In this document: positions 1 through 20,874 of the stretch, piece by piece | How positions within the stretch are numbered: the stretch's first letter is position 1 | How the letters are laid out: every line of letters starts with the position of its first letter | IMG/VR virus record: IMGVR_UViG_3300050123_000043 | Span: 1 to 64,000 of that record | Length of the DNA stretch: 64,000 nucleotides | Source of the DNA: a virus | Lineage: Duplodnaviria; Caudoviricetes | Strand: one strand, 5' to 3' | Program-made: the position numbers and the translations under genes | The notes under the pieces: generated by a model | Databases searched by the model: none | What the model saw: only the letters and a program-made list of their open reading frames with translations | What the model was told of the DNA's origin: nothing

Positions 1-207
1 CATCCCCGGAAACCCGTGCATCCCCGTAAACCCATGCATCCCCGGAAACCCGTGCATTCCCGTAAACCCGTGCATTCCCGGAAACCCATGCATCCCCGGA
101 AACCCGTGCATCCCCGGAAACCCATGCATCCCCGTAAACCTGTGCATTCCCGGAAACCCGTGCATCCCCGGAAACCCGTGCATCCCCGGAAACCCATGCA
201 TCCCCGA
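1..207. repeat. 18-bp tandem repeat (CATYCCCGKAAACCYRTG, ~11 copies) encoding A(W/R/Q)V(S/Y)G(D/N) on the minus strand
   Basis: Directly visible period-18 repeat. Confidence 0.95.
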
Positions 208-346
208 AAACATTATCCTCTTTCTCTATAAAGCCGCCTTTCTCCCCTTTTTTACCCCATTTACAATCAATGGTTAATTCAATTCTGTATAAAGTTTTAC
301 CAAATAAATCAATAATTGTTTCTTTGGTTAATTTAAAATGTTTCAT
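1..346 (-). CDS. Hexapeptide-repeat (left-handed beta-helix-like) phage protein, runs off the window edge
   Basis: Not in the ORF track. Manual translation from ATG at 346: [61 protein letters not shown]..., the common phage LYRI...GG(F/W)IEKE + A(W/R)V(S/Y)G(D/N) repeat family. Confidence 0.85.
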
Positions 347-462
347 TGTTGTTTTAATTTAAAATAATGCGTAACCTATCAAAGCAATAGCTTCTAATAA
401 TAAAAATAATCCAATTGTAAGGAATGGATGCCTCTGCCAAAAACTGTATGGATTCCTCATAA

Positions 463-1371
463 TCAATTATTTATGTATACTTGAATGTATTGAAAGTAAT
501 TAATAGTTCCATCCTTATCAACTTCTTTGAGCCTAAAGATACCACTTTTTGCGTTAATGTCAAGGGGTATCTTTTGTTCGGTCTTGGTACATGATATAGT
601 TCCCAGAGTAAAGATGAGCATTGTAGCCATTGACATGAATACTTTTCTATTCTTTCCCAAGGATAGCAGTAACCCGATAATGAACATAATCACCAACCCC
701 GAAGCGATACCGGCCTGTAGTGACCCGTTAACGTTCCCAGTGGCATAGTAGACCGTTGAGGTATATGTTCTCTGTATCTGTGTATCTCCATAAGAATCAT
801 AATGGGCAACCATCCTTTCACTATTATCAGGCATAAGCTGCAACACTTCATAGTAGCTTACATTCTGCTCCATGCTTAGGGTCCAATCAAACTCAATCTT
901 ATTTAGTGCCTGATATGTTCCAGTAAAACTTAATAGATTGATTGGGAGGGCAAGACATTGATCAATAATACCATGTTGATTATAATGATATAGTCCGCTT
1001 GCCCATACCGTATTACCATACGAATCGTTTTCCGTACCGTATAGATTAGTTATGTAAGAGGGGACATTAATTTTAAATTCTGCGTCTCCAATTGCACCAA
1101 CTGAATCATTTAATCCATATGAAGTTTTCTTACTAAGGTTAATTGTAAGACTCCAAACAACAGGATTAGTATGAGTTATACTCTGACTCCCATCCTTTGT
1201 AGCATAGATATAGGCACTATAACCTTTACCTACTGACCAATCATCCATTTCCATTGTCATTGTATGATTTGCTGAACAGTATGCAAAAGGAACAATGTAA
1301 TGGGCTTCTGCTTCTGAGCCGATTAGAGTAGTCAATATAATTAGAATGACCCCCAAGATTAATTTTTTCAT
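463..1371 (-). CDS. Exported/membrane protein with a Bacteroidota-type Ig-like module interrupted by two hydrophobic segments
   Basis: N-terminal signal peptide; LPINLLSFTG...WTLSMEQN and FRLKEVDKDG motifs; TM-like segments lie between them. Confidence 0.6.
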   Translation of the reverse strand: MKKLILGVILIILTTLIGSEAEAHYIVPFAYCSANHTMTMEMDDWSVGKGYSAYIYATKDGSQSITHTNPVVWSLTINLSKKTSYGLNDSVGAIGDAEFKINVPSYITNLYGTENDSYGNTVWASGLYHYNQHGIIDQCLALPINLLSFTGTYQALNKIEFDWTLSMEQNVSYYEVLQLMPDNSERMVAHYDSYGDTQIQRTYTSTVYYATGNVNGSLQAGIASGLVIMFIIGLLLSLGKNRKVFMSMATMLIFTLGTISCTKTEQKIPLDINAKSGIFRLKEVDKDGTINYFQYIQVYINN

Positions 1372-1390
1372 TTGTGTTTTTTAAAGTGAA

Positions 1391-1570
1391 TTAATAACCG
1401 ATAAAGTGAAAGTTTTCTGGACAGCCCATATTCCGGACTTTCATATAGTCGTGTCCCTTTTCTTCGAACTTAACGTTAGGATCATGCTTTATAACTACAC
1501 ATGATGATAATGAGAATGATACTGAAAAGAGAAGTACCAATACCCACGCTGTAATAATTACCTTTTTCAT
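1391..1570 (-). CDS. Small lipoprotein (59 aa)
   Basis: Manual translation MKKVIITAWVLVLLFSVSFSLSSC...; lipobox LSSC; below the ORF-track size cutoff. Confidence 0.65.
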   Translation of the reverse strand: MKKVIITAWVLVLLFSVSFSLSSCVVIKHDPNVKFEEKGHDYMKVRNMGCPENFHFIGY

Positions 1571-1587
1571 TTTTGTTTGTTTTATGT

Positions 1588-1899
1588 TTAAAAGTTTTTA
1601 CTGTTTGTGTCCCCTGGCTTTGCTGCAAGTACCTTGTTGAAATTGAAAATATTGGTTGAATAAATATCGTCCTTCTGTTGCCACTTAACATCCTTACCAT
1701 CCCTAGATACAAAGGAAAGATCATACCCTAACACATTAATAACCGAAATAAGAACATCAACGCTATAGTTCTTACGATCCTTCTCCATCTCTAATATCCT
1801 ACGATAGCCAACGCCAGCCTTGTCAGCTAGATCGTATTGACTTAGTTTTTGCTCAATTCGTTTTTCTCGAATGAAGGAGCCGATATTAGTTTTGTTCAT
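1588..1899 (-). CDS. XRE/Cro-family HTH transcriptional regulator
   Basis: IREKRIEQKLSQYDLADKAGVGYRRILEMEK HTH pattern. Confidence 0.85.
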   Translation of the reverse strand: MNKTNIGSFIREKRIEQKLSQYDLADKAGVGYRRILEMEKDRKNYSVDVLISVINVLGYDLSFVSRDGKDVKWQQKDDIYSTNIFNFNKVLAAKPGDTNSKNF

Positions 1900-2129
1900 A
1901 AAAACGTATTAGCGTATTTAATTTGATCTTTACGATTTGCAATCTGAGCATAGATCGTATTCTTTTCAAGCGGTGACTTGCCTTGTAACTGCTCGTTAAG
2001 TTCTACTATAGTTTCCTCCAAATCTGAAATGAGAGAATGAGCCTTTTTCTTATTTAATATAACATTGTGTTTAATGAAATAAAGAAAATGTTTCTCTTCT
2101 TCTTCACTTAAAAATTCTGCTTCAATCAT
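1896..2129 (-). CDS. Hypothetical protein
   Basis: ORF in packed minus-strand run; start trimmed to MIEAEF to avoid overlap. Confidence 0.55.
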   Translation of the reverse strand: MIEAEFLSEEEEKHFLYFIKHNVILNKKKAHSLISDLEETIVELNEQLQGKSPLEKNTIYAQIANRKDQIKYANTFL

Positions 2130-2139
2130 AAAACTGATT

Positions 2140-2352
2140 TTATTTACCATTAACAAATCCTGTCCTTTGCCATTGACTTGTAAGATCAACTTTAACGAAC
2201 TTGTCATTGATCATGAAACCCTTTAGAACTTTAGTTTCACCTCTCTTTAATTTAATTGCTTCGGCTGCTTCCTGTCCGATTGCTTCTACTGAATAAGTGT
2301 CAGGCTGTGTACCATTGTGATGATTGACCTGGAAAACTGTTTTAACTTCCAT
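2140..2352 (-). CDS. Hypothetical protein
   Basis: ORF in packed run; probable start MEVKTV. Confidence 0.55.
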   Translation of the reverse strand: MEVKTVFQVNHHNGTQPDTYSVEAIGQEAAEAIKLKRGETKVLKGFMINDKFVKVDLTSQWQRTGFVNGK

Positions 2353-2386
2353 GATTGTATGTTTATAAATACATGCATCCCGCATG

Positions 2387-2662
2387 TTAGGCTAAATCAA
2401 ATTGTTTTATGTCTTCTAATAATTCACTGAGATCCATTGGTTCTTGTATTTCTACAAATCTACCAATATAATATGCCCACTCTTTACCACATGCAGCAAG
2501 ATCATTTATTATTTCTTCCAATAATACACACTGTCTATTTCCTCTTTTATGATTAGTTCCGTATCTAATACTTCTTATTGTATATATTGCGGATTTATCA
2601 AGGGGTTTGGTGTTAGGTAAATCTGTATTATCAATACATTTAACCAGTGATCCTACTTTCAT
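2387..2662 (-). CDS. Hypothetical phage protein
   Basis: MKVGSLVKCID N-terminus typical of small SH3-like phage proteins. Confidence 0.6.
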   Translation of the reverse strand: MKVGSLVKCIDNTDLPNTKPLDKSAIYTIRSIRYGTNHKRGNRQCVLLEEIINDLAACGKEWAYYIGRFVEIQEPMDLSELLEDIKQFDLA

Positions 2663-2664
2663 TT

Positions 2665-2862
2665 TTAAGGTTTTAATTTCATTCCTAATAAATATTCTCC
2701 TATCAGTTTCTCATAGTTTCTAATGAAACATGAACCATCTTCAACATAATAAATTCCTTCCGCTGCTATAACGTTGAAGATAGTGTCAGGGAATTCTCTT
2801 GATTGCTTTGTTGCGTCAGCAATTGCAGCCTTCTTTGTTGTGTGTTTTGCCTGATAACTCAT
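2665..2862 (-). CDS. Hypothetical protein
   Basis: ORF in packed run. Confidence 0.55.
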   Translation of the reverse strand: MSYQAKHTTKKAAIADATKQSREFPDTIFNVIAAEGIYYVEDGSCFIRNYEKLIGEYLLGMKLKP

Positions 2863-3002
2863 TTTGTTGGGGTTTTAAAGATTCTGTAAAATATATACAA
2901 TCCTAATCCTATAAAGGCAATACCCAACCAAGTTAACCGTTGTAAGGTATATACTCCTATCATTATAGAAGCCATAGCGGAAAGTAATGTGAATTTTTCC
3001 AT
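2859..3002 (-). CDS. Small two-TM membrane protein
   Basis: MEKFTLL... with two hydrophobic stretches. Confidence 0.55.
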   Translation of the reverse strand: MEKFTLLSAMASIMIGVYTLQRLTWLGIAFIGLGLYIFYRIFKTPTK

Positions 3003-3010
3003 TGTAGTGG

Positions 3011-3397
3011 TTAATAGGGGTAAAGATAAACAATAGTAATGTCTCTTTTCTTTGCACAATCGTAGATGGCTATCTGTTCATTTTCGAACCCTCTGCTATA
3101 TGCTTCATCAAACTCTTTAACGTTACGTACAACGTCTATGTATAATTCGTTATCATGTTTCCAACAACCCACAAAAGTATTTTCGCTGTCAATCAATACA
3201 TCAAATGTGTTCCTATCGAATAGGAATACCCTAACGTAATTTTTAAATTCTTCGAATGTTGCAGGGATAGGAAACTTTTGTTCGTGTCCTTTAGTGGCAA
3301 CCATATAGCCGGTTGTTGGGTTAAGTTCTCCAGTATTAACGTTGTAAGACGCACCACCGGAATTCTTAAGACTTTCCCACATGTGTTTAAAATTCAT
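3011..3397 (-). CDS. Conserved hypothetical phage protein
   Basis: GG-S..GYMVA..GxW..LYIDV..QIAIYD pattern recurrent in phage early genes. Confidence 0.65.
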   Translation of the reverse strand: MNFKHMWESLKNSGGASYNVNTGELNPTTGYMVATKGHEQKFPIPATFEEFKNYVRVFLFDRNTFDVLIDSENTFVGCWKHDNELYIDVVRNVKEFDEAYSRGFENEQIAIYDCAKKRDITIVYLYPY

Positions 3398-3404
3398 TGT
3401 AGTA

Positions 3405-3680
3405 TTATTTATTGATGTCCGAAAATATTGTTAATGCGTCCACTAAACTAAGTTCATCCAGTACATAGGAATTGTTACGGCCTAATAGGTGTACTCTGAA
3501 TGCGTCTACACCTGTTACCTTCCTTCCGTTGGTGTCCTCCCATATCTTATAAGAAAACATAACCTTGCCTTTTAATTCTCTTTTAATTGAATGTACAATG
3601 TTTTGCCTTAATTCTTCCTTGTCCGAAAATGGATCATTGTATTCTAAAAATGCTTGTTCGGGGGACATTTGCTTTAACAT
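3405..3680 (-). CDS. Hypothetical protein
   Basis: ORF in packed run. Confidence 0.55.
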   Translation of the reverse strand: MLKQMSPEQAFLEYNDPFSDKEELRQNIVHSIKRELKGKVMFSYKIWEDTNGRKVTGVDAFRVHLLGRNNSYVLDELSLVDALTIFSDINK

Positions 3681-3683
3681 AGC

Positions 3684-3860
3684 TTAATTTATTGTTCTTA
3701 AAATTTTAATTGCTTCTGCTACTTTTTTCTCAACCTCCCATAATTTCTCTTGGTTTATTCGGCCTAATATTATTAGCTTATGGTTCATTGTTTGACTGTT
3801 ATGCAGATTTTCCAATACTTTAGAAAGATGATTTGCATTGCTTTTGAATAATGATGGCAT
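3684..3860 (-). CDS. Hypothetical protein
   Basis: Start trimmed to MPSLFK to avoid overlap. Confidence 0.45.
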   Translation of the reverse strand: MPSLFKSNANHLSKVLENLHNSQTMNHKLIILGRINQEKLWEVEKKVAEAIKILRTIN

Positions 3861-3870
3861 ACAATAAAAT

Positions 3871-4158
3871 TTAAAATGTGAAATGCAATGGCTTTTCAAG
3901 TCCCACCCTATTGGCAGTAGTGTTAAGAAACTTGTTTGCCTTCTTACCATATTCAAGTTGTCTGTCTTCCTTGTTACGTATCTTCAATGTAAGTAGCAAA
4001 TCTTTCTCTTCCTTAGTCTTCTTAAAGGTATTGAAATCAATATCGTAAAAGACTCCAGGTGCGGCCATGTAGCCATTCTGAATGGCTGGAACTACTTTAA
4101 AGACTCCGTTAATGAATCCGCTTTGCTCAATTTTTGTGTTCGTTCTAATTGCTTGCAT
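3871..4158 (-). CDS. Hypothetical protein
   Basis: Probable start MQAIRT. Confidence 0.55.
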   Translation of the reverse strand: MQAIRTNTKIEQSGFINGVFKVVPAIQNGYMAAPGVFYDIDFNTFKKTKEEKDLLLTLKIRNKEDRQLEYGKKANKFLNTTANRVGLEKPLHFTF

Positions 4159-4168
4159 GTTTTTTATT

Positions 4169-4426
4169 TTAATAATCAATTAATAAATTTCCATCTTTAG
4201 ATATATAACCATTCTCAATTAAATTGGTTGCAGTCCTGCCATAAAATCCCTGCAATGACCAACATAGACCCGTTTTAATTAGATATGCCCATGCCTCTAA
4301 TTGTTCCCTAGTTGTTGCTCCTTCGCCTTCATTGAAACCTTCTGCATAAGCAGAAGCAAGATAAGGAGTGAATTGAATTTGTGTTTTGATATTCTCAGGA
4401 ATGCCGTTTTCTGCTATAATTTCCAT
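4169..4426 (-). CDS. Conserved hypothetical phage protein
   Basis: AWxxLIxTGxxWxLQGxYGRTA motif recurrent in phage proteins. Confidence 0.65.
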   Translation of the reverse strand: MEIIAENGIPENIKTQIQFTPYLASAYAEGFNEGEGATTREQLEAWAYLIKTGLCWSLQGFYGRTATNLIENGYISKDGNLLIDY

Positions 4427-4436
4427 AAAATTTAAT

Positions 4437-4772
4437 TTAGAATGTAAAAGGTAATTGTGTATCGGGCTGGTAATTTCTTTTAGTGCGTGGTTCCTTTACC
4501 TTTATAGGAATGTTTAAGATTCGTATTGCCTCCCTAATATCCCTATAATCGGGTAAGGTTTGATCTTTGGAGGTTTCAGAAATTACTATTTCATTCTCAT
4601 TAGAGACGGTGAATGTAGTAATTATTTTGGATTGAAACGTATGCCCATGCCGTCCCTCTGTTCGTCCCCTCCATGTAAAAGAGCCATCCTCATTTTTGTA
4701 AAGCTTACCAATTCTGTCATGTCCTCCATATCCCCAACCTCTCATCCAGTCAGAGCAAAATATTTGTTTCAT
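4437..4772 (-). CDS. Hypothetical protein
   Basis: ORF in packed run. Confidence 0.55.
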   Translation of the reverse strand: MKQIFCSDWMRGWGYGGHDRIGKLYKNEDGSFTWRGRTEGRHGHTFQSKIITTFTVSNENEIVISETSKDQTLPDYRDIREAIRILNIPIKVKEPRTKRNYQPDTQLPFTF

Positions 4773-4773
4773 G

Positions 4774-5490
4774 TTAAAAAGGATTTTCGTTTGTAAAAGG
4801 TTTCCATTCTGTTGTTGTATCGTGTTTCCTTAAATCTCTTATCCTACGATATGTGACCCAAGTGATTGCTTGTAATTGGTGCGGTAATATGTCTAACTGT
4901 TTTGCAGCCTGTATAAAGCAGCGTTGAAAGAAGTCATATTGCGCCCTAGTTAAGTCTCCATACTTTTCATTCAAAGCATAAACGTTATCAGGGTTCTGTA
5001 TACAACATGCTATAGCATGTCTGTCTATTGTTACGTCCGTAATTATATCAGGATTAATCATATTAAGGAAAAACCCCTTAGTTTTAAATCCTGCATTCGC
5101 AATTGAAAGGGCATTATAAATATCCGGTTCCGCACTCAAGTTAAGAATTCTCTTAGCTTTGTTCGTTTGAACTAGGGATTTAATACGTCTGGTTGGATTA
5201 TAAAGGAATGACAAGGCAAAGCGTTTATTTTCGACCCAACCGGTTTGGGGGCTGAAAGCTGCAATGATCCCAGCAGCCTGTTGCAAGCTTATTCCGAACC
5301 TTGATGCAAGTTCCCTGCAATACTTGTTGGCTTCATTATACCACGTTAAACCGTCCTTTAATTCGCTAAGGGAGGCAAGGGAATAAAACCGTAGTATTGA
5401 GTTAATGCACTTGCGTTCAGTCAGCAATTGATTTTTAAACCTTTGATTTTTCATTGAATATTTGTTTTGCCCATTGGTTGAAGTCTCCAT
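4774..5490 (-). CDS. Phage protein of a putative alpha-helical DNA-glycosylase-like family
   Basis: WYxxA..AGIIAAFSPQTGWxxN, KTxxF, VTIDRHA and LQAITW motifs; start METSTN. Confidence 0.5.
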   Translation of the reverse strand: METSTNGQNKYSMKNQRFKNQLLTERKCINSILRFYSLASLSELKDGLTWYNEANKYCRELASRFGISLQQAAGIIAAFSPQTGWVENKRFALSFLYNPTRRIKSLVQTNKAKRILNLSAEPDIYNALSIANAGFKTKGFFLNMINPDIITDVTIDRHAIACCIQNPDNVYALNEKYGDLTRAQYDFFQRCFIQAAKQLDILPHQLQAITWVTYRRIRDLRKHDTTTEWKPFTNENPF

Positions 5491-5612
5491 AATCGTCTGG
5501 TACTTCAATATGGTGGATTGTTTTGTTTGGCTTAATACCCTTTGGTTGCAGATAGGGATCATAACCAAACAATCTAATTAGGATTAACCGAATAGTTTTC
5601 TTTACCATAAAA

Positions 5613-5882
5613 TTATTTTAGGGGATTAAATGTAGTTGAAATAAATATCCATTCTGTTTTCCCTTCGCCCTTGCCTATAATTTCAAAGCCTTTTTTCTGC
5701 AACCACATCTTTGCATTTTCCCATACGGAGTAATCCCAATCATGATTTATAGTTATAGATTCACGAAATCGGAATGAAGATATTTTAATCCTTTCCCCAC
5801 GCGAATTAGATTCAGGAATATATTTTGCTGTGATAAGATGGAAATTAGGAAGGGAGAGGGCCTTCATATCTTTTAAATTCAT
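5613..5882 (-). CDS. Hypothetical phage protein
   Basis: ITAKYIPESNSRGERIKI motif. Confidence 0.6.
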   Translation of the reverse strand: MNLKDMKALSLPNFHLITAKYIPESNSRGERIKISSFRFRESITINHDWDYSVWENAKMWLQKKGFEIIGKGEGKTEWIFISTTFNPLK

Positions 5883-6040
5883 GATTTTTTATTTAATTGA
5901 ATGATGTGAAATATAATGAAGGCAATGATGTTTACCATATTGAGGTAAAGGAAAGAAAAAAGTGCAAGTGAAGTAAGCTATTAAGAAACCCATTACAGCC
6001 CCTATCAATATAACAGAGACATGTAGTAATATTCTTTTAA

Positions 6041-6277
6041 TCATTTCAATTTTGTTTTAAGTGAATCTAATTCCAGCCTTGTAAGATAATCTAATCCTAC
6101 TGTATCTTTGTCTTGAACAAAAATAACAGAGGTATACCCTCTATTATCTGTGATTTGTTTTATTATCTTGTTTGGGTTAATGTTTGTTTTTATACCAGTT
6201 AAGATCAACATTAGTGAAATAATTGGTGTAAGCAAAGCAAAAAGTAAGATTGATTCGTCTCTGTAAGTTTGTTTCAT
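6041..6277 (-). CDS. Small membrane-anchored protein
   Basis: N-terminal hydrophobic segment. Confidence 0.5.
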   Translation of the reverse strand: MKQTYRDESILLFALLTPIISLMLILTGIKTNINPNKIIKQITDNRGYTSVIFVQDKDTVGLDYLTRLELDSLKTKLK

Positions 6278-6295
6278 GGTAATGGGTTTTGGTTA

Positions 6296-6526
6296 TTAAA
6301 TAAGTTCGTACCGTTCATCATTTGGAATAATATGTTCTTCAACAAAAAAGATAAGATCAGCAATGGAAATAACTTTGGAATCATCATCTAAGTTATTATC
6401 TATAATATATTCCTTATAAAGTTCTGCATACATTTCAATTCTTTTCAGGGAAATGTTTTCCTTTTTTTTACTACTGCATGAATAAAAGGCAATTGGTGTA
6501 ATTACTTGTTTGATATAACTTTCCAT
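6296..6526 (-). CDS. Hypothetical protein
   Basis: ORF with A-rich upstream region. Confidence 0.5.
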   Translation of the reverse strand: MESYIKQVITPIAFYSCSSKKKENISLKRIEMYAELYKEYIIDNNLDDDSKVISIADLIFFVEEHIIPNDERYELI

Positions 6527-6548
6527 AAAATATTATTTAAGTGATTGA

Positions 6549-6586
6549 ATAAAAAAGAAAGGGAGAAATGTAGAAACATTCCCCCC
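6549..6586 (-). terminator. Intrinsic terminator
   Basis: Minus strand GGGGGGAATG-TTTCTA-CATTTCTCCC followed by TTTCTTTTTT. Confidence 0.75.
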
Positions 6587-7351
6587 TGTGTGTTAAAGAA
6601 ACCCATTGAAAACTAAAAGAATGACCGTCCGTAATAAGATAAAGCAAAGGTACTTGTTATTGGTGAAGTAGTGGCAATCTTCATCGTTGACACTTAGGAT
6701 TGTTATCTTTTCACTCTGTATACCTAAAGGTAGGTTTACCTTTGCTTTAAAGGTCTGGAAGGTATCAATTGAGACACAATAGCTAGTTCGAACTAATAAT
6801 TCTGAATTACTCCCAGACACACTATTCCCGAAGGAATAGATTTAAAGATCTTTAATTTTTCACGCCCTTTTAAACTTCGGAATAACATAATATTCGTACT
6901 AGGTCAGCGATTAGTTAACGCTTACTACTTTCCTGCAACCTGTAAAAACTCTATGTCGTTTTCACTATCTAATTGCCCGGATTTTATTCGCGTTCAAACA
7001 TTACCCGAATGCATCCTATGCATTCATAAGGGGTGAAAGGGAAATAAAATCTTTGGTTCGTCCCTTCCTTCGCTCCGCTACCGATAAACCAGCCTATTCG
7101 GTGGAATTATTTTCAGGTAACTCAATACGGGTAAAAATGACCCGCTCGCATACGCTTACTTTCAGTTTCAGCATTTCAACCGTTCCGTTTCGTTCTAAAA
7201 ATCCAGCTTGCACCCTGGTAACTACTTAACCATATACTCAATTACTGACTTAACAAGGTCAGATGAGAACATGGCCGGAATAATGATAAGAATTTAGCGA
7301 ACACACGATTCCCAGGATGGGAAGTGGGCATGTATACCCTCAACTCATTCG
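6550..7351 (-). ncRNA. Candidate large structured ncRNA (~800 nt)
   Basis: Bounded by a promoter and a terminator; no credible ORF; many stems, with UUCG/GNRA loops in minus orientation. Confidence 0.55.
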
Positions 7352-7357
7352 CATATA

Positions 7358-7389
7358 CAATATTACAACTATGCGCTGAAACGTACAAG
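7358..7389 (-). promoter_or_regulatory. Bacteroidota-type sigma-A promoter for the ncRNA candidate
   Basis: Minus strand cTTG-N20-TAATATTG versus consensus TTTG-N19-21-TAnnTTTG. Confidence 0.55.
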
Positions 7390-8253
7390 AGTAAAAGTAC
7401 TCATTCTTAAATAATAACCAATATATAGTTATCCACAATATTTGGAAGTCTCAATATTATTTCGTATGCGCTAAAACGTACTATGCGAATATCTTTGTAT
7501 ATGTGACAGGATATTTGATTGATCCTATTAGCCCCCTTTGGGGGTTGGGGGCTGTAGACAACCAGAAGGAATAAATAATGAATTCCCCCTCCCCGCTTCA
7601 ATCCATTACCGACAACCTGTCATAATCTTATGCGCTAAAATGTATATGCGCTATAACGTACATAGTATGGAATGGTTCTTATTATGGGGGTTTGGGCCTT
7701 TTAATAGACAATATTCTCTAATAAGGACCGCATTCCCAGGACGGTCCTATCCTCCCAAAACAAACCACCACCCCCATCCCCAGACTCATTCCGGTATGTA
7801 CACTTTAACGCATATACATTATAAATCATATTGGTTATGTCAACTACTATGTATTACCATGTATGTTTTAGCGCATATTCCCAATCCCCCCCTTATTTTT
7901 AAAATTGGACAGAATCTAGGATTGGGAATTGAAAACAGAATTGGGAACGATGCCGGGGGTGGGAGGGCAGTCCCAAAGTTGGACGGCAGCCAAGTTGATG
8001 GTGGGTCTATCTGAGGACCCCCACACCCTATTTCCGTTTCAAATCGGTTCAAATCACGAAACTTTAACATTTCATTGGGGATTATATTGATTTAAAAAGC
8101 GTATCTTTGCCACCGGCCTTCCGTACTAAGGCCCTAACAGGCCGCACAAGGACGGTAAGATGGGGGATACTATATAAAAGACCCCCCCCCCTCCATATTG
8201 GACACTTTGTCCAATAACAATGTACGCTCTAGCGCATATGCGTTAAAACGTAC
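7370..8253. repeat. Eight dispersed copies of a 17-bp motif, TATGCGCTAAAACGTAC, in both orientations
   Basis: Starts at 7370, 7465, 7629, 7645, 8237 (+) and 7798, 7861, 8222 (-). Confidence 0.85.
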
Positions 8254-8390
8254 TTGGACATCGTGTCCAACATAATGTCCGAGTTATGCTTTGTAGCTGG
8301 ATAAGGACTTTAAAGACAACCGGGAGGGGGAAAATTAAATTTGGATATTAAAAAAACTCTTGTTACCTTTATTCCTAAAATCATAACAGT

Positions 8391-8879
8391 ATGAAAGGAT
8401 TGGGAAGATTATGGAAAATGAAAAAGGATACCTCTTATTCTGAGGAGTCCAAGAACTCCTTTCAGTTCCTTAAAAGACAAAAGATATACCGGGAGACCGG
8501 GGATCTTTACCTGGATAGGTTGATTATAATTCGTTGTTTTCTGGGATCAATTATGTTTCATAAGATCTATCTGACGGACAGCGATTGTATGCATGACCAT
8601 TCCTGGAGCTTCAGAACTATCATTTTAAAGGGAGGATATTTCGAGCAGATTCCCCGGTTCAAAAAAGGTTGTTCATTTTGGCATAATGAACATATTGAAA
8701 AATGGTATAAACCAGGCACAATCCTCTATCGTCCAGCAGGTTGGGTTCATAGATTAAGGATTACAAAGCCAGCTTGGACCTTGGTATTCACCGGTCCCAC
8801 CAAACGGGAGTGGGGATTCTGGACTCCGAAGGGATGGCTCAAGTCAAACAAATATAAAAATGTTGGGAATTGTCAATAA
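8391..8879 (+). CDS. Cupin-fold phage protein
   Basis: HDHSWSF..ILKGGYFE and HR cupin motifs. Confidence 0.7.
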   Translation: MKGLGRLWKMKKDTSYSEESKNSFQFLKRQKIYRETGDLYLDRLIIIRCFLGSIMFHKIYLTDSDCMHDHSWSFRTIILKGGYFEQIPRFKKGCSFWHNEHIEKWYKPGTILYRPAGWVHRLRITKPAWTLVFTGPTKREWGFWTPKGWLKSNKYKNVGNCQ

Positions 8880-8993
8880 TTAAATGTATATTCGCATTAT
8901 GCTCAATAAGAACCTTTTAAATTTTACCCTGGTTGTTTTCTCATATGGTGCTATCTTATTGACAGTCTTATACTTAAAAGATAAATCGAAGAA

Positions 8994-9197
8994 ATGAAAA
9001 AAATCCTGATTGATTTCACAACTGTTTTAAAAAAGAAAGATAGATTTACAGATCATGCCGGGGTTGAACATAAGATAAAAGAAGTAACGTATGCCCCCTC
9101 CAACGGGACGGTATATATAGAGACGACAGAAGGGAAGATGATTAACCTTACTAAAGCGTTGATTAACAAAGATATATTATGTCTACTCAAGAAATGA
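8994..9197 (+). CDS. Hypothetical protein
   Basis: ORF in plus-strand run. Confidence 0.5.
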   Translation: MKKILIDFTTVLKKKDRFTDHAGVEHKIKEVTYAPSNGTVYIETTEGKMINLTKALINKDILCLLKK

Positions 9198-9474
9198 TTC
9201 GTTGGATACCTTTAGAAGAATATAAAATAATGCAACAATCTGAAGAGGAATGGAAAAAGATAAATTATAGAATATTCATGAGTACTTTTTGGGGTATGGA
9301 AATACCTAAACCATTAATAAATAAAGAGTTATGATTAACACCCTTCTTTGTTTTTTAGGTATTCATAGATGGCATTCCGTTAGAAATGGACCTAAAATCC
9401 CTTTTTCAAGATGTAGATATATTTTTTGTACTCGTTGCGGAAAACAAAAATAACACACTGATAAATAAAGACTT

Positions 9475-9738
9475 ATGAACTTTGCAAAACTCTTCTCTAT
9501 TGATGACGATACCCAGGTGCTTGTTAGGCTCGAAGATGGGTTTGATGAAACCACCGGAGAAGAAATTACAAACGTTACTCAAACAACTGAGTACAACGGA
9601 GTTACAATGGAATGTTCTAAAGGATTCCTGGAAGTAAAAGACGCTGAAGAATATTTTAAAAAGTTCTCCCTGGCTCTTGCCATTACTTTTCATGAGGATG
9701 CCCGGAAGGTTATTTTCGATATGGTGGAGGAAGGCTGA
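9475..9738 (+). CDS. Hypothetical protein
   Basis: ORF in plus-strand run. Confidence 0.6.
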   Translation: MNFAKLFSIDDDTQVLVRLEDGFDETTGEEITNVTQTTEYNGVTMECSKGFLEVKDAEEYFKKFSLALAITFHEDARKVIFDMVEEG

Positions 9739-11825: not shown

Positions 11826-11898
11826 ACCCTTGTAGCAAACTGGCCGTAGGCAAGAGACTTTTAATCTCTGGGGTTTGGTTCGATTCCAAACGGGGGTA
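11826..11898 (+). tRNA. tRNA-Lys(TTT)
   Basis: Cloverleaf; AGAGA-CTTTTAA-TCTCT. Confidence 0.9.
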
Positions 11899-12326: not shown

Positions 12327-12358
12327 TTTGGATTTGACACATATTTATCCTATTTTTG
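12327..12358 (+). promoter_or_regulatory. Internal sigma-A promoter for the nuclease gene
   Basis: TTTG-N20-TATTTTTG. Confidence 0.7.
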
Positions 12359-17985: not shown

Positions 17986-18017
17986 TTTGGTAATTTCAAT
18001 TATTTTACATATATTTG
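17986..18017 (+). promoter_or_regulatory. Sigma-A promoter of tRNA block 2
   Basis: TTTG-N20-TATATTTG. Confidence 0.8.
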
Positions 18018-18765: not shown

Positions 18766-18797
18766 TTTGGAAGTTTCCTCTTTATTTCGTATGTTTG
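18766..18797 (+). promoter_or_regulatory. Internal sigma-A promoter for the HNH gene
   Basis: TTTG-N20-TATGTTTG. Confidence 0.7.
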
Positions 18798-20820: not shown

Positions 20821-20874
20821 ATTTAACATAGTCTTAACTTGGTTTTATAATAAAAAACTGTTACATTTGCAAGT

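What the first reader, a model, noticed from the sequence alone, without database searches (positions are those of the whole stretch)
6550..7351. Candidate ~800-nt ornate ncRNA heading the leftward arm
An 800-bp stretch without a credible ORF, in an otherwise dense genome, lies between a minus-strand promoter (7358-7389) and a terminator (6549-6586). In minus orientation it has CTATTCC-TTCG-GGAATAG (6822-6839) and GCAA/GAAA-capped stems. Long-range helices include 6641-6652/6737-6748 (12 bp perfect), 6753-6761/6810-6818 and 6980-6988/7043-7051, plus several local hairpins. Size and phage context recall large RNAs such as GOLLD or ROOL, but I cannot assign it to either.
Basis: partly seen in the sequence, partly recalled or inferred. 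Interest (0 to 1): 0.78.

Follow-up and report, generated by a model that had tools for sequence, protein, structure and literature searches.

The report
Untranslated 800-base leader in phage
A peat-soil phage has an 800-base stretch that codes for no protein, lies between a promoter-like site and a strong transcription stop just ahead of its leftward genes, and is probably copied into a long untranslated RNA, but nothing shows it to be an elaborately folded RNA.

Summary
The sequence features are real. 6550-7351 has no credible gene and is part of a larger gene-free gap, 6527-8390, between the two diverging gene arms of a ~100-kb crAss-related phage record from peat. A strong leftward-only intrinsic terminator (6587-6550) ends 24 nt before the first leftward ATG. 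A near-consensus Bacteroidota promoter (TTG-N20-TAATATTG, 7388-7358) lies 800 nt upstream.

Non-coding status is well supported by codon statistics, absence of any family or homologue match, and 1-nt indels between strains.

The "ornate RNA" reading is not supported:
- No Rfam family matches, including GOLLD and ROOL.
- Folding z is about -2.5 on both strands, which is within the range of coding controls.
- 9-bp helices occur as often as in shuffled sequence. Only the 13-bp inverted repeat, the terminator and one UUCG hairpin stand out.
- In related strains the region is a mosaic of conserved and replaced blocks and diverges faster than the neighbouring genes.

No homologue beyond near-identical strains could be fetched, and no RNA run holds the sequence.

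Best reading (0.4): an operator-controlled untranslated early transcript or leader that ends at a gate terminator. The closest precedent is the unexplained early long non-coding RNAs of crAss-like phage phi14:2. This scan had not noted the same thing on other DNA.

The parts
7358..7388 (-). Promoter-like site: -33 TTG (7388-7386), 20-nt spacer, -7 box TAATATTG (7365-7358). The predicted RNA start is about 7352 +/- 5.
   Evidence: The geometry equals this phage's canonical TTG-N17-21-TAnnTTTG promoters. Matches of this relaxed class occur about 0.8 per kb per strand, so the site is not significant on its own.
7370..7386 (-). One copy of the 17-mer (plus-strand consensus TATGCGCTAAAACGTAC), lying in the promoter spacer. 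It is a candidate operator.
   Evidence: 8 copies with at most 3 mismatches, all within 7370-8253 of the 97.8-kb record. A second copy, 7465-7481, is also followed by TAATATTG 5 nt later (read).
6550..7352 (-). Body of the putative untranslated transcript, about 800 nt.
   Evidence: Non-coding by several tests: all 11 open frames tested in the wider gap (10 of them in or overlapping 6550-7351, one at 7541-8014) have negative codon log-odds; 10 frames give no Pfam or PHROG hit below E 0.08; the 82-aa frame has no homologue; strains differ by 1-nt indels. GC is 0.36-0.42 against 0.28-0.29 in the adjacent genes.
6799..7076 (-). The block best conserved among the strains that could be laid.
   Evidence: the run X8 contig covering 6820-7076 shows 3 substitutions and 2 one-nt indels in 257 nt. 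Run X5 shows the same differences.
7077..7218 (-). Replaced module: 142 nt here against 139 unalignable nt in related strains.
   Evidence: joint 7076->7219, seen in runs X5 and X8.
6665..6712 (-). Replaced module inside the 13-bp inverted repeat: 48 nt here against 66 nt in relatives.
   Evidence: joint 6664->6713, seen in runs X5 and X14, with loose ends in X8 and X17.
6765..6798 (-). Hypervariable patch with 12 substitutions and 3 one-nt indels in run X5. It includes the palindrome UAGUUCGAACUA.
   Evidence: Four of the substitutions break predicted pairs.
6640..6749 (.). 13-bp perfect inverted repeat (6640-6652 and 6737-6749) enclosing 84 nt. Each arm carries the octamer TACCTTTG, which matches the -7 consensus.
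   Evidence: 0 of 300 shuffles reach 13 bp. The 13-mer occurs nowhere else in the window without mismatch. Pairing probability is 0.93 in the minus-strand fold.
6822..6839 (-). 7-bp hairpin capped by UUCG.
   Evidence: In the MFE fold its 3' half pairs instead with 7065-7072 (P = 0.56).
6550..6587 (-). Intrinsic terminator: 12-pair stem, 4-nt loop, T-rich tail.
   Evidence: pairing probability 0.97. It remains aligned in related strains although the gene downstream of 6552 is replaced.
6527..6549 (-). Spacer between the terminator tail and the first leftward ATG (6526). It has no canonical promoter.
   Evidence: A 30-nt loose end from runs X8 and X17 keeps the start codon at the same offset.

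Best explanation
6550-7352 is an untranslated leftward transcription unit at the head of the phage's early, leftward arm.

Proposed mechanism:
1. RNA polymerase starts near 7352 from a near-consensus Bacteroidota-type promoter. Its spacer holds one of eight 17-mer sites, so a phage DNA-binding protein can probably switch it.
2. The polymerase crosses about 800 nt that no ribosome reads.
3. It meets a strong intrinsic terminator 24 nt before the first leftward gene.
4. Most transcripts end there as an ~800-nt RNA. The fraction that reads through feeds the small leftward genes, which have no canonical promoter of their own.

On this reading the unit works as a long leader plus gate. Any function of the released RNA in trans is open.

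Shown: the stretch is non-coding; the terminator and the promoter-like site are present and correctly oriented; the stretch is a mosaic between strains.
Inferred: transcription itself, the 5' end, read-through, and the operator role of the 17-mer.
For: Non-coding:
- Codon log-odds are negative for all 11 frames tested in the wider gap 6505-8014 (-0.018 to -0.54), 10 of them in or overlapping 6550-7351. 12 of 14 flanking small genes are positive. The wrong-frame null has mean -0.135.
- No family hit and no homologue.
- 1-nt indels between strains at 6595, 6782, 6788, 6797, 7002 and 7030.

Terminator:
- It is strand-specific and the strongest of 6 terminator-like sites in 5500-9500.
- It is kept in strains whose downstream gene cassette is replaced (272 nt by 435 nt).
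- A terminator with no gene upstream of it makes sense only if leftward transcripts arise within the gap.

Promoter:
- Its geometry matches this phage's canonical class.
- Canonical promoters elsewhere sit 4-17 nt before an ATG. No such promoter precedes 6526.

Composition:
- GC skew across 6600-8200 has the sign of minus-sense genes.

Strain substitutions against the minus-strand fold:
- Outside the hypervariable patch, 7 of 7 visible substitutions are compatible with the minus-strand MFE fold: 5 unpaired and 2 changed to G.U.
- On the plus-strand fold 5 of 7 are compatible.
- Background compatibility is 0.71 for transitions and 0.36 for transversions.

Precedent:
- Two long intergenic regions of crAss-like phage phi14:2 are transcribed from the earliest time point, at higher levels than most genes, and their function is unknown (passages of bioRxiv 10.1101/2020.03.07.982082).
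- The nearest named relative, Leptolyngbya phage Lbo-JY46, has about 990 gene-free nt at the syntenic junction.
Against: - There is no transcript evidence of any kind.
- The promoter match is of a class expected about 1.5 times per strand in a gap of this size. Early genes of crAss-like phages may be read by a virion polymerase for which no promoter motif is known.
- Folding z is about the same on both strands and lies within the coding range.
- The stretch diverges faster than the neighbouring genes: 19 differences in 312 nt and 5 in 113 nt, against 2 in 680 nt. Blocks are replaced, and in run X14 nothing aligns between 6772 and 7219.
- Two of the 4 indels outside the hypervariable patch fall in predicted helices (6586 del5, 7030 del1).
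- Only 7 of roughly 16-20 differences outside that patch were visible, because hides 28 rows. The substitution test is therefore partial.
- 800 nt is far longer than known leaders.
Confidence: 0.4

Rival explanations
1. One reading: a large, intricately folded, trans-acting RNA of a new class, comparable in kind to GOLLD or ROOL, made as a discrete 800-nt product.
For: - The unit is bounded by a promoter-like site and a terminator.
- GC is raised in an AT-rich genome.
- The 13-bp helix, the UUCG hairpin and a multi-branch domain between 7038-7028 and 6869-6858 have pairing probabilities of 0.8-0.9.
- The replaced blocks keep their length (142 against 139 nt, 48 against 66 nt) and sit inside helices that remain aligned.
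- 7 of 7 visible substitutions are compatible with the minus-strand fold.
Against: - No Rfam match at E <= 10; the best score is 23 bits against a 49-bit threshold.
- Folding z is about -2.5 on both strands, and 2 of 11 coding controls equal it.
- 150-nt windows are unremarkable, with minus-strand z from +0.90 to -1.89.
- Long stems occur at chance frequency, and stems valid on the plus strand (47) and the minus strand (53) are equally common.
- Turnover between near-identical strains is fast.
- There is no detectable relative in 113 loci, 12 virus records, the phage collection, or 401 Bacteroidota genomes, where 4 genomes gave only 27-36-nt matches.
Confidence: 0.15
2. The stretch acts as DNA rather than RNA. 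It is part of the control, replication-origin or packaging region at the point where the two arms diverge, and the terminator merely insulates the leftward genes.
For: - It adjoins eight 17-mer sites found nowhere else in the 97.8-kb record and a strongly folding dyad at 8150-8299 (z -5.4 and -8.4).
- The only above-chance helix is a perfect Watson-Crick inverted repeat with no G.U pair.
- Folding is symmetric between strands.
- The cumulative GC-skew minimum lies at about 8000-8400.
- In run X5 a second, otherwise unalignable contig carries 17-mer-bearing segments. This suggests those sites, not the 800 nt, are what is conserved.
Against: - The terminator is strand-specific and kept across strains, which implies real leftward transcription.
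- The stretch is richer in GC than its surroundings, unlike an unwinding element.
- The 17-mers stop at 7370, outside the body of the stretch.
Confidence: 0.2
3. Only the last ~110 nt matter. A promoter whose -7 box is TACCTTTG (6652-6645) drives the leftward genes through a short leader with a terminator-type attenuator, possibly opened by ribosomes reading the 34-codon frame 6606-6502 that runs through the hairpin. The rest (6750-7351) is variable spacer or decayed sequence.
For: - This is the only exact TAnnTTTG on the minus strand of the gap.
- The small frame spans the terminator and overlaps the first gene's start.
- The two deletions in relatives (5 nt + 1 nt) sum to 6 nt, so the frame is restored.
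- Earlier notes of this scan, which I did not check, report leader-peptide attenuators elsewhere in this phage.
- The upstream part turns over quickly.
Against: - There is no -33 TTG at 19-21 nt; the nearest is at 22 nt.
- The -33 area lies in a block that is replaced in relatives.
- The frame's codon score is -0.024, which is not gene-like.
- A net indel that is a multiple of 3 arises by chance one time in three.
- The same octamer sits in the other arm of the inverted repeat, so it may be there for pairing.
Confidence: 0.15
4. The stretch encodes one or more small proteins that ORF rules miss.
For: Neighbouring early genes are small (51-89 aa), and this phage uses almost no Shine-Dalgarno sites (1 of 49 and 0 of 14 genes), so start sites are hard to judge.
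Against: - All frames tested have negative codon scores.
- No family hit.
- No homologue of the 82-aa frame among 5.8 billion proteins, not even a called gene from this record.
- 1-nt indels between strains fall inside the frames.
Confidence: 0.03

Closest known systems
Early long non-coding RNAs of crAss-like Cellulophaga phage phi14:2 (g004-g005 and g005-g006 intergenic regions)
   Same: - Both are long gene-free stretches: about 690 and 580 nt within a 1.7-kb gap in phi14:2, and 800 nt within a 1.86-kb gap here.
- Both lie among small early genes of a phage related to crAss-like phages.
- The phi14:2 regions are reported as highly transcribed from the first time point, with function unknown (passages).
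   Different: - No sequence similarity.
- The phi14:2 regions lie inside a single-direction early block, not at a divergence point.
- One of them is a tmRNA by my own scan, whereas no tmRNA is found here.
- Transcription is measured there and only inferred here.
- This phage is only distantly related: its large terminase subunit (TerL) is 25-31% identical to those of crAss-like phages.
GOLLD and ROOL large RNAs (names and properties recalled; both are Rfam families)
   Same: Similar size range, phage context, and a genome that also carries many tRNA genes.
   Different: - Neither model matches, even at E <= 10.
- The stretch is not next to the tRNA blocks, which begin at 11826.
- There is no sign of conservation beyond near-identical strains.
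Leader-plus-terminator gates of phage early operons: lambda nut/N and HK022 put antitermination (recalled from established knowledge)
   Same: - Divergent early promoters with multiple operator sites.
- An untranslated leader.
- A terminator that must be passed to reach the downstream early genes.
   Different: - Those leaders are tens to a few hundred nt long, not 800.
- No nut- or put-like element, and no antiterminator pairing with the terminator arms, was found by eye.
- No antitermination protein has been identified here.
pyrBI-type attenuators, in which a leader frame runs through the terminator (recalled)
   Same: A 34-codon frame (6606-6502) spans the terminator hairpin.
   Different: The frame's codon score is not gene-like, and it ends inside the next gene. 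Nothing on this was tested.

Membership tests
GOLLD RNA (Rfam) | Match to the Rfam covariance model at or near its gathering score | tested here: not met
   cmscan of the whole window at gathering thresholds gave 14 matches, all tRNA. cmscan of 6200-8600 at E <= 10 gave 10 weak matches, none to GOLLD.
ROOL RNA (Rfam) | Match to the Rfam covariance model | tested here: not met
   no match at E <= 10.
Any other curated RNA family (tmRNA, RNase P, 6S, OLE, HEARO, raiA, riboswitches, group I/II introns and so on) | Match to one of the 4227 Rfam models; for tmRNA and tRNA, also detection by ARAGORN | tested here: not met
   the best E-values are 0.33 (CsrB, 14.4 bits against a 71-bit threshold) and 0.5 (Ref66, 20.9 against 92). 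ARAGORN finds nothing in 6400-8500.
Intrinsic (factor-independent) terminator | GC-rich stem-loop directly followed by a U-tract on the transcribed strand | tested here: met
   12 pairs (5 G-C), 4-nt loop, tail TTCTTTTTTA, minus strand only. Pairing probability is 0.97.
Bacteroidota primary-sigma promoter (consensus recalled: -33 TTG, -7 TAnnTTTG, about 19-21 nt apart) | Both elements present with the right spacing | tested here: inconclusive
   TTG-N20-TAATATTG matches 5 of 6 fixed -7 positions. The exact class occurs 15 times per strand in the record. The relaxed class occurs about 78 times per strand.
Bacteroidota primary-sigma promoter | Start of transcription shown by experiment | not testable with these tools
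   No RNA run holds the stretch.
phi14:2-type early long non-coding RNA | Abundant early transcription of a gene-free stretch in the early region | not testable with these tools
   No RNA holder is listed. The layout is analogous.
phi14:2-type early long non-coding RNA | Sequence or structural homology to the phi14:2 regions | tested here: not met
   blastn and nhmmer give no match below E 0.19.
Structured RNA in general | Folding energy clearly below shuffles and below coding controls, on one strand | tested here: not met
   z is -2.53 (minus) and -2.39 (plus). The 11 coding controls range from +1.15 to -2.86.
Structured RNA in general | Covarying base pairs among homologues | not testable with these tools
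   Only difference tables from near-identical strains were available. A partial substitution test gave 7 of 7 compatible changes.
Protein-coding gene(s) | Gene-like codon usage, family or homologue match, and a frame kept open among strains | tested here: not met

The most novel reading that the evidence does not exclude
The 800-nt unit is the first member of a new class of large phage RNAs. On this reading it is an immediate-early, operator-switched, terminator-bounded RNA with a conserved core (6799-7076) and exchangeable domains. It would be carried at the arm-divergence point by a family of ~112-kb soil and peat Bacteroidota phages, and would act in trans on the host (takeover or counter-defence) or on the polymerase (processive antitermination).
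Probability: 0.12. Interest if true: 0.75.

Novelty: new member of a known kind. Interest (0 to 1): 0.36.

Why it matters
Phage genomes are packed tightly, so 0.8 kb (1.86 kb counting the whole gap) without a gene is paid for by some function. Long early non-coding RNAs have been seen in one crAss-like phage and remain unexplained. A second, unrelated example, with clear boundaries, an operator in its promoter, and natural domain swaps between strains, would give a tractable case for asking what such RNAs do.

If instead the stretch is only a leader and gate, it shows how a Bacteroidota phage that lacks canonical promoters on its early arm controls entry into that arm.

In either case the related ~112-kb contigs in public peat runs should allow a proper covariation test.

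Tried and rejected
HOMOLOGUE HUNTS THAT GAVE NOTHING USABLE
- blastn of 6400-8400 against 50,697 phage records: no match.
- Single-protein scans of viral contigs with the 264-aa, 162-aa and portal proteins: no relatives.
- Alignment-based scans:
  - Viral contigs gave 21 loci, all at or below 41% identity.
  - Metagenome contigs gave 184 relatives, of which 80 were kept, best 72%. These are short contigs, and the upstream parts I inspected (L035, L046, L040) hold more genes rather than the gap.
  - Genome contigs gave 2 loci at 36-40%.
- blastn and nhmmer of the gap against the 113 loci then held: no hit.
- The 802 nt against 12 virus records: 0 of 12.
- The gap against 401 Bacteroidota genomes: 4 of 401 with 27-36-nt matches at E 1e-4 to 8e-4, which I take as chance.
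- Exact-pattern scans of viral contigs:
  - The 16-mer gave 12 single-copy contigs, each with 1 site against 6 in this phage under the degenerate pattern.
  - The 22-nt hairpin pattern gave 0.
  - The 18-nt UUCG hairpin gave 4 contigs with no similarity beyond 20 nt. One match lies inside a 210-aa ORF of a phage whose portal is only 25% identical.
- Our-findings look-ups by sequence and by relatives: nothing to show.

EXPRESSION
- No RNA holder is listed among the 23 runs. This is no evidence either way.
- Parts of the stretch without cover in runs X14 and X17 are not evidence either.

IDEAS CONSIDERED AND DROPPED
- Stop-codon reassignment: there is no suppressor tRNA among the 21 tRNAs, and the arms read well under code 11.
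- An invertible DNA segment between the 13-bp arms: the relatives' replacement sequence is not the reverse complement of this one (loose end, compared by eye).
- A tmRNA-like gene as in phi14:2.
- A pseudogene remnant.
- Host-derived sequence.
- Homology of the 1689-aa virion protein to solved structures: no hit. I therefore do not claim a virion RNA polymerase.

LITERATURE
- A term search of PMC7886860 for non-coding, intergenic and origin terms found 0 passages.
- The search listing added nothing beyond the phi14:2 preprint.
- Of that preprint I read only the passages returned by 'find'. Its supplementary tables, which hold transcript coordinates, were not consulted.
Full report
CONTEXT

The window is the first 64 kb of a 97.8-kb linear virus record with estimated completeness of 75%. 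All public runs that hold the stretch are peat or permafrost metagenomes.

- Genes run leftward from 6526 to 1, and again from 97.5 kb down to 82.7 kb at the other end of the record. They run rightward from 8391 to about 82 kb.
- A related strain assembles as a 112,720-nt contig that closes on itself.
- The large terminase is 40.8% identical to that of Leptolyngbya phage Lbo-JY46, 29.5% to Cellulophaga phages phi17:2 and phi4:1, and 25-31% to crAss-like gut phages. The 1689-aa virion protein shows the same order of relatives.
- Only 1 of 49 rightward and 0 of 14 leftward genes have a Shine-Dalgarno-like core.
- A clear promoter class, TTG(G)-N19/20-TAnnTTTG, sits 4-17 nt before many ATGs. This matches the Bacteroidota promoter consensus as I recall it, so I infer a Bacteroidota host.

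THE OBSERVATION

The gene-free stretch is real and larger than reported: 6527-8390. Within 6550-7351:
- The terminator is found by the scan: minus strand 6587-6560, 12 pairs, T-rich tail.
- The promoter-like site is TTG-N20-TAATATTG at 7388-7358.
- The UUCG hairpin (6839-6822) and the named helices exist.

Against chance, the picture is thin:
- Stems of 9 or more pairs are as frequent as in shuffles: 21 against 21.8, P = 0.58.
- Tetraloop-capped stems number 1 against 0.97 expected, and the GCAA/GAAA-capped stems have fewer than 4 pairs.
- Stems valid on the plus strand (47) and on the minus strand (53) are equally common.
- Only the 13-bp perfect inverted repeat exceeds every one of 300 shuffles.
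- Whole-region folding gives z = -2.53 (minus) and -2.39 (plus). The tool itself gave -2.74 and -1.97.
- Eleven coding windows of equal length gave -1.07, -2.86, -0.32, -0.81, -1.50, -1.26, -0.08, +0.08, -2.52, -0.11 and +1.15. The target is at the low end but is not distinct.
- In 150-nt windows the target is ordinary. The one strongly folding window of the gap is 8150-8299, which lies outside this finding.

IT IS NOT CODING

- All 11 frames tested in the wider gap 6505-8014 (10 of them in or overlapping 6550-7351) have negative codon log-odds (-0.018 to -0.54). This resembles wrong-frame open stretches (mean -0.135, n = 2092). By contrast, 12 of 14 neighbouring small genes are positive.
- Ten stop-to-stop frames hit no Pfam or PHROG family below E 0.08.
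- The 82-aa frame has no homologue among 5.8 billion proteins.
- Related strains differ by 1-nt indels at six places in the stretch.

IT IS NOT A KNOWN RNA

- At Rfam gathering thresholds the window has only tRNAs.
- At E <= 10 the gap gives ten weak matches, all far under their thresholds.
- ARAGORN finds nothing.
- GOLLD and ROOL membership is therefore tested and not met.

WHAT RELATED STRAINS SHOW

Contigs from four runs were laid at 80% likeness or better.
- The leftward genes 5600-6279 are almost identical: 2 differences in 680 nt.
- The next 272 nt, which hold the 76-aa first gene, are replaced by 435 other letters. The replacement begins exactly at the end of the terminator tail (6552).
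- A 30-nt loose end keeps the start codon at the same offset.
- Within the finding, 6552-6664 aligns with 5 differences and 6 gap letters.
- 6665-6712 is replaced (48 nt by 66 nt).
- 6713-7024 aligns with 19 differences. Twelve of them, plus three 1-nt indels, are crowded into 6765-6798.
- 6820-7076 has only 3 substitutions and 2 single-nt indels.
- 7077-7218 is replaced (142 nt by 139 nt).
- 7219-8010 aligns with 24 differences and no gaps.
- In run X14 nothing aligns between 6772 and 7219, even though the flanking contigs have high depth.

The stretch is therefore a mosaic that changes faster than the genes beside it. This is hard to square with a tightly constrained tertiary fold. The near-equal lengths of the replaced blocks, and their position inside helices that stay aligned, would fit exchangeable RNA domains, but would equally fit ordinary phage mosaicism.

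A small structure test is mildly favourable to a minus-sense RNA:
- Outside the hypervariable patch, 7 of 7 visible substitutions are either unpaired (5) or change a pair to G.U (2) in the minus-strand MFE fold. The same two break pairs on the plus strand.
- Background compatibility is 0.71 for transitions and 0.36 for transversions.
- Against this, 2 of the 4 indels outside the patch fall in predicted helices.
- hid 28 further difference rows, so only about 7 of 16-20 relevant changes were seen.

NO MORE DISTANT HOMOLOGUE WAS OBTAINED

The neighbouring 264-aa protein (PF23802) has 153 relatives, some on contigs of 66-123 kb. The open collections gave only distant or short loci that do not reach the gap. 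Direct DNA and pattern searches were empty or returned chance hits. Covariation, the decisive test, remains undone.

CONTEXT THAT BEARS ON MECHANISM

- A 17-mer occurs eight times, in both orientations, only in 7370-8253 of the whole record.
- One copy fills the spacer of the promoter-like site. A second copy (7465-7481) is also followed by TAATATTG.
- The leftward small genes have no canonical promoter. None lies between the terminator and 6526, and the exact class is absent from 1-6526 on the minus strand.
- A strong leftward-only terminator with no gene upstream implies leftward transcripts that begin within the gap. I put that inference at about 0.75, and a start near 7352 at about 0.4.

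PRECEDENT

- In crAss-like phage phi14:2, two long intergenic regions among the early genes are transcribed from the earliest time point, above the level of most genes, with function unknown (passages of bioRxiv 10.1101/2020.03.07.982082). The record has a 1.7-kb gap there.
- By my own scan the second of those regions is a tmRNA: Rfam 46 bits against a threshold of 47, E = 1.4e-16. ARAGORN gives the tag peptide GSSVQKLAMVA. The first region matches nothing.
- Neither resembles the present stretch.
- Lbo-JY46, which is syntenic with this phage around its tRNA blocks and terminase, has about 990 gene-free nt at the same junction. That stretch has no Rfam match and no similarity to this one.

A long untranslated region at or near the start of the early genes thus recurs in this broad group, while its sequence does not.

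VERDICT

The most likely reading (0.4) is an untranslated early transcript that works as a long leader ending at a gate terminator. Its promoter would be under control of the 17-mer-binding factor.

Rivals:
- A DNA-level control or origin region (0.2).
- A short attenuator leader with the rest as variable spacer (0.15).
- Small proteins (0.03).

The finding is a sound candidate but an unproven one. Its ornate character is not supported by any test I could run.

Noticed in passing
window 7370-8253: Eight copies of a 17-mer (consensus TATGCGCTAAAACGTAC, at most 3 mismatches), five in one orientation and three in the other, occur only here in the 97.8-kb record. An overlapping inverted pair at 8222-8253 lies in the most strongly folding 150-nt window (8150-8299, z -5.4 and -8.4). 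In run X5 a separate 2,175-nt contig carries 17-mer-bearing segments but nothing else alignable.
   Followed up: partly
window 7400-8390: The right half of the gap alternates runs of C and runs of G (for example 7533-7555, 7586-7596, 7768-7786, 7953-7968, 8183-8196, 8321-8330). It folds further below shuffles than the finding does (z -4.40 minus, -3.30 plus for 7400-8201). Its 158-aa TTG frame (7538-8014) has a non-coding codon score of -0.106.
   Followed up: partly
window 6502-6606 (minus strand): A 34-codon ATG frame runs through the terminator hairpin and ends 22 nt inside the first leftward gene. The relatives' two deletions there (5 nt + 1 nt) sum to 6 nt. This could be a ribosome-opened attenuator of the pyrBI kind, or chance.
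   Followed up: no
window 6279-6552 and 8010-8059: These look like gene-cassette swap points. In related strains the first leftward gene (76 aa) is replaced by 435 other nt starting exactly at the terminator tail, and 48 nt at 8010-8059 are replaced by 502 nt.
   Followed up: no
L115 (NC_021806, Cellulophaga phage phi14:2) 4031-4502: One of the two 'long non-coding RNAs of unknown function' in the phi14:2 preprint appears to be a tmRNA. Rfam scores it 46 bits (threshold 47, E = 1.4e-16), and ARAGORN calls a tmRNA with tag peptide GSSVQKLAMVA.
   Followed up: partly
window, e.g. 12328-12358, 17987-18017, 18767-18797, 20839-20869; record 87277-87307: A sharp promoter class, TTGG-N19-TAnnTTTG, ends 4-17 nt before ATGs. 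Together with the near absence of Shine-Dalgarno cores, this points to a Bacteroidota host and very short leaders. The small leftward genes 1-6526 lack this class.
   Followed up: partly
L121 12324-13313 (PP438436, Leptolyngbya phage Lbo-JY46, 124323-125312): The nearest named relative has about 990 gene-free nt at the syntenic arm junction, next to similarly ordered tRNA blocks. That stretch has no Rfam match and no similarity to this gap.
   Followed up: partly
record G000 and run X5: A related strain assembles as a self-closing contig of 112,720 nt, so the 97.8-kb record lacks roughly 15 kb. The record's minus-strand genes at 82.7-97.5 kb continue the leftward arm.
   Followed up: no
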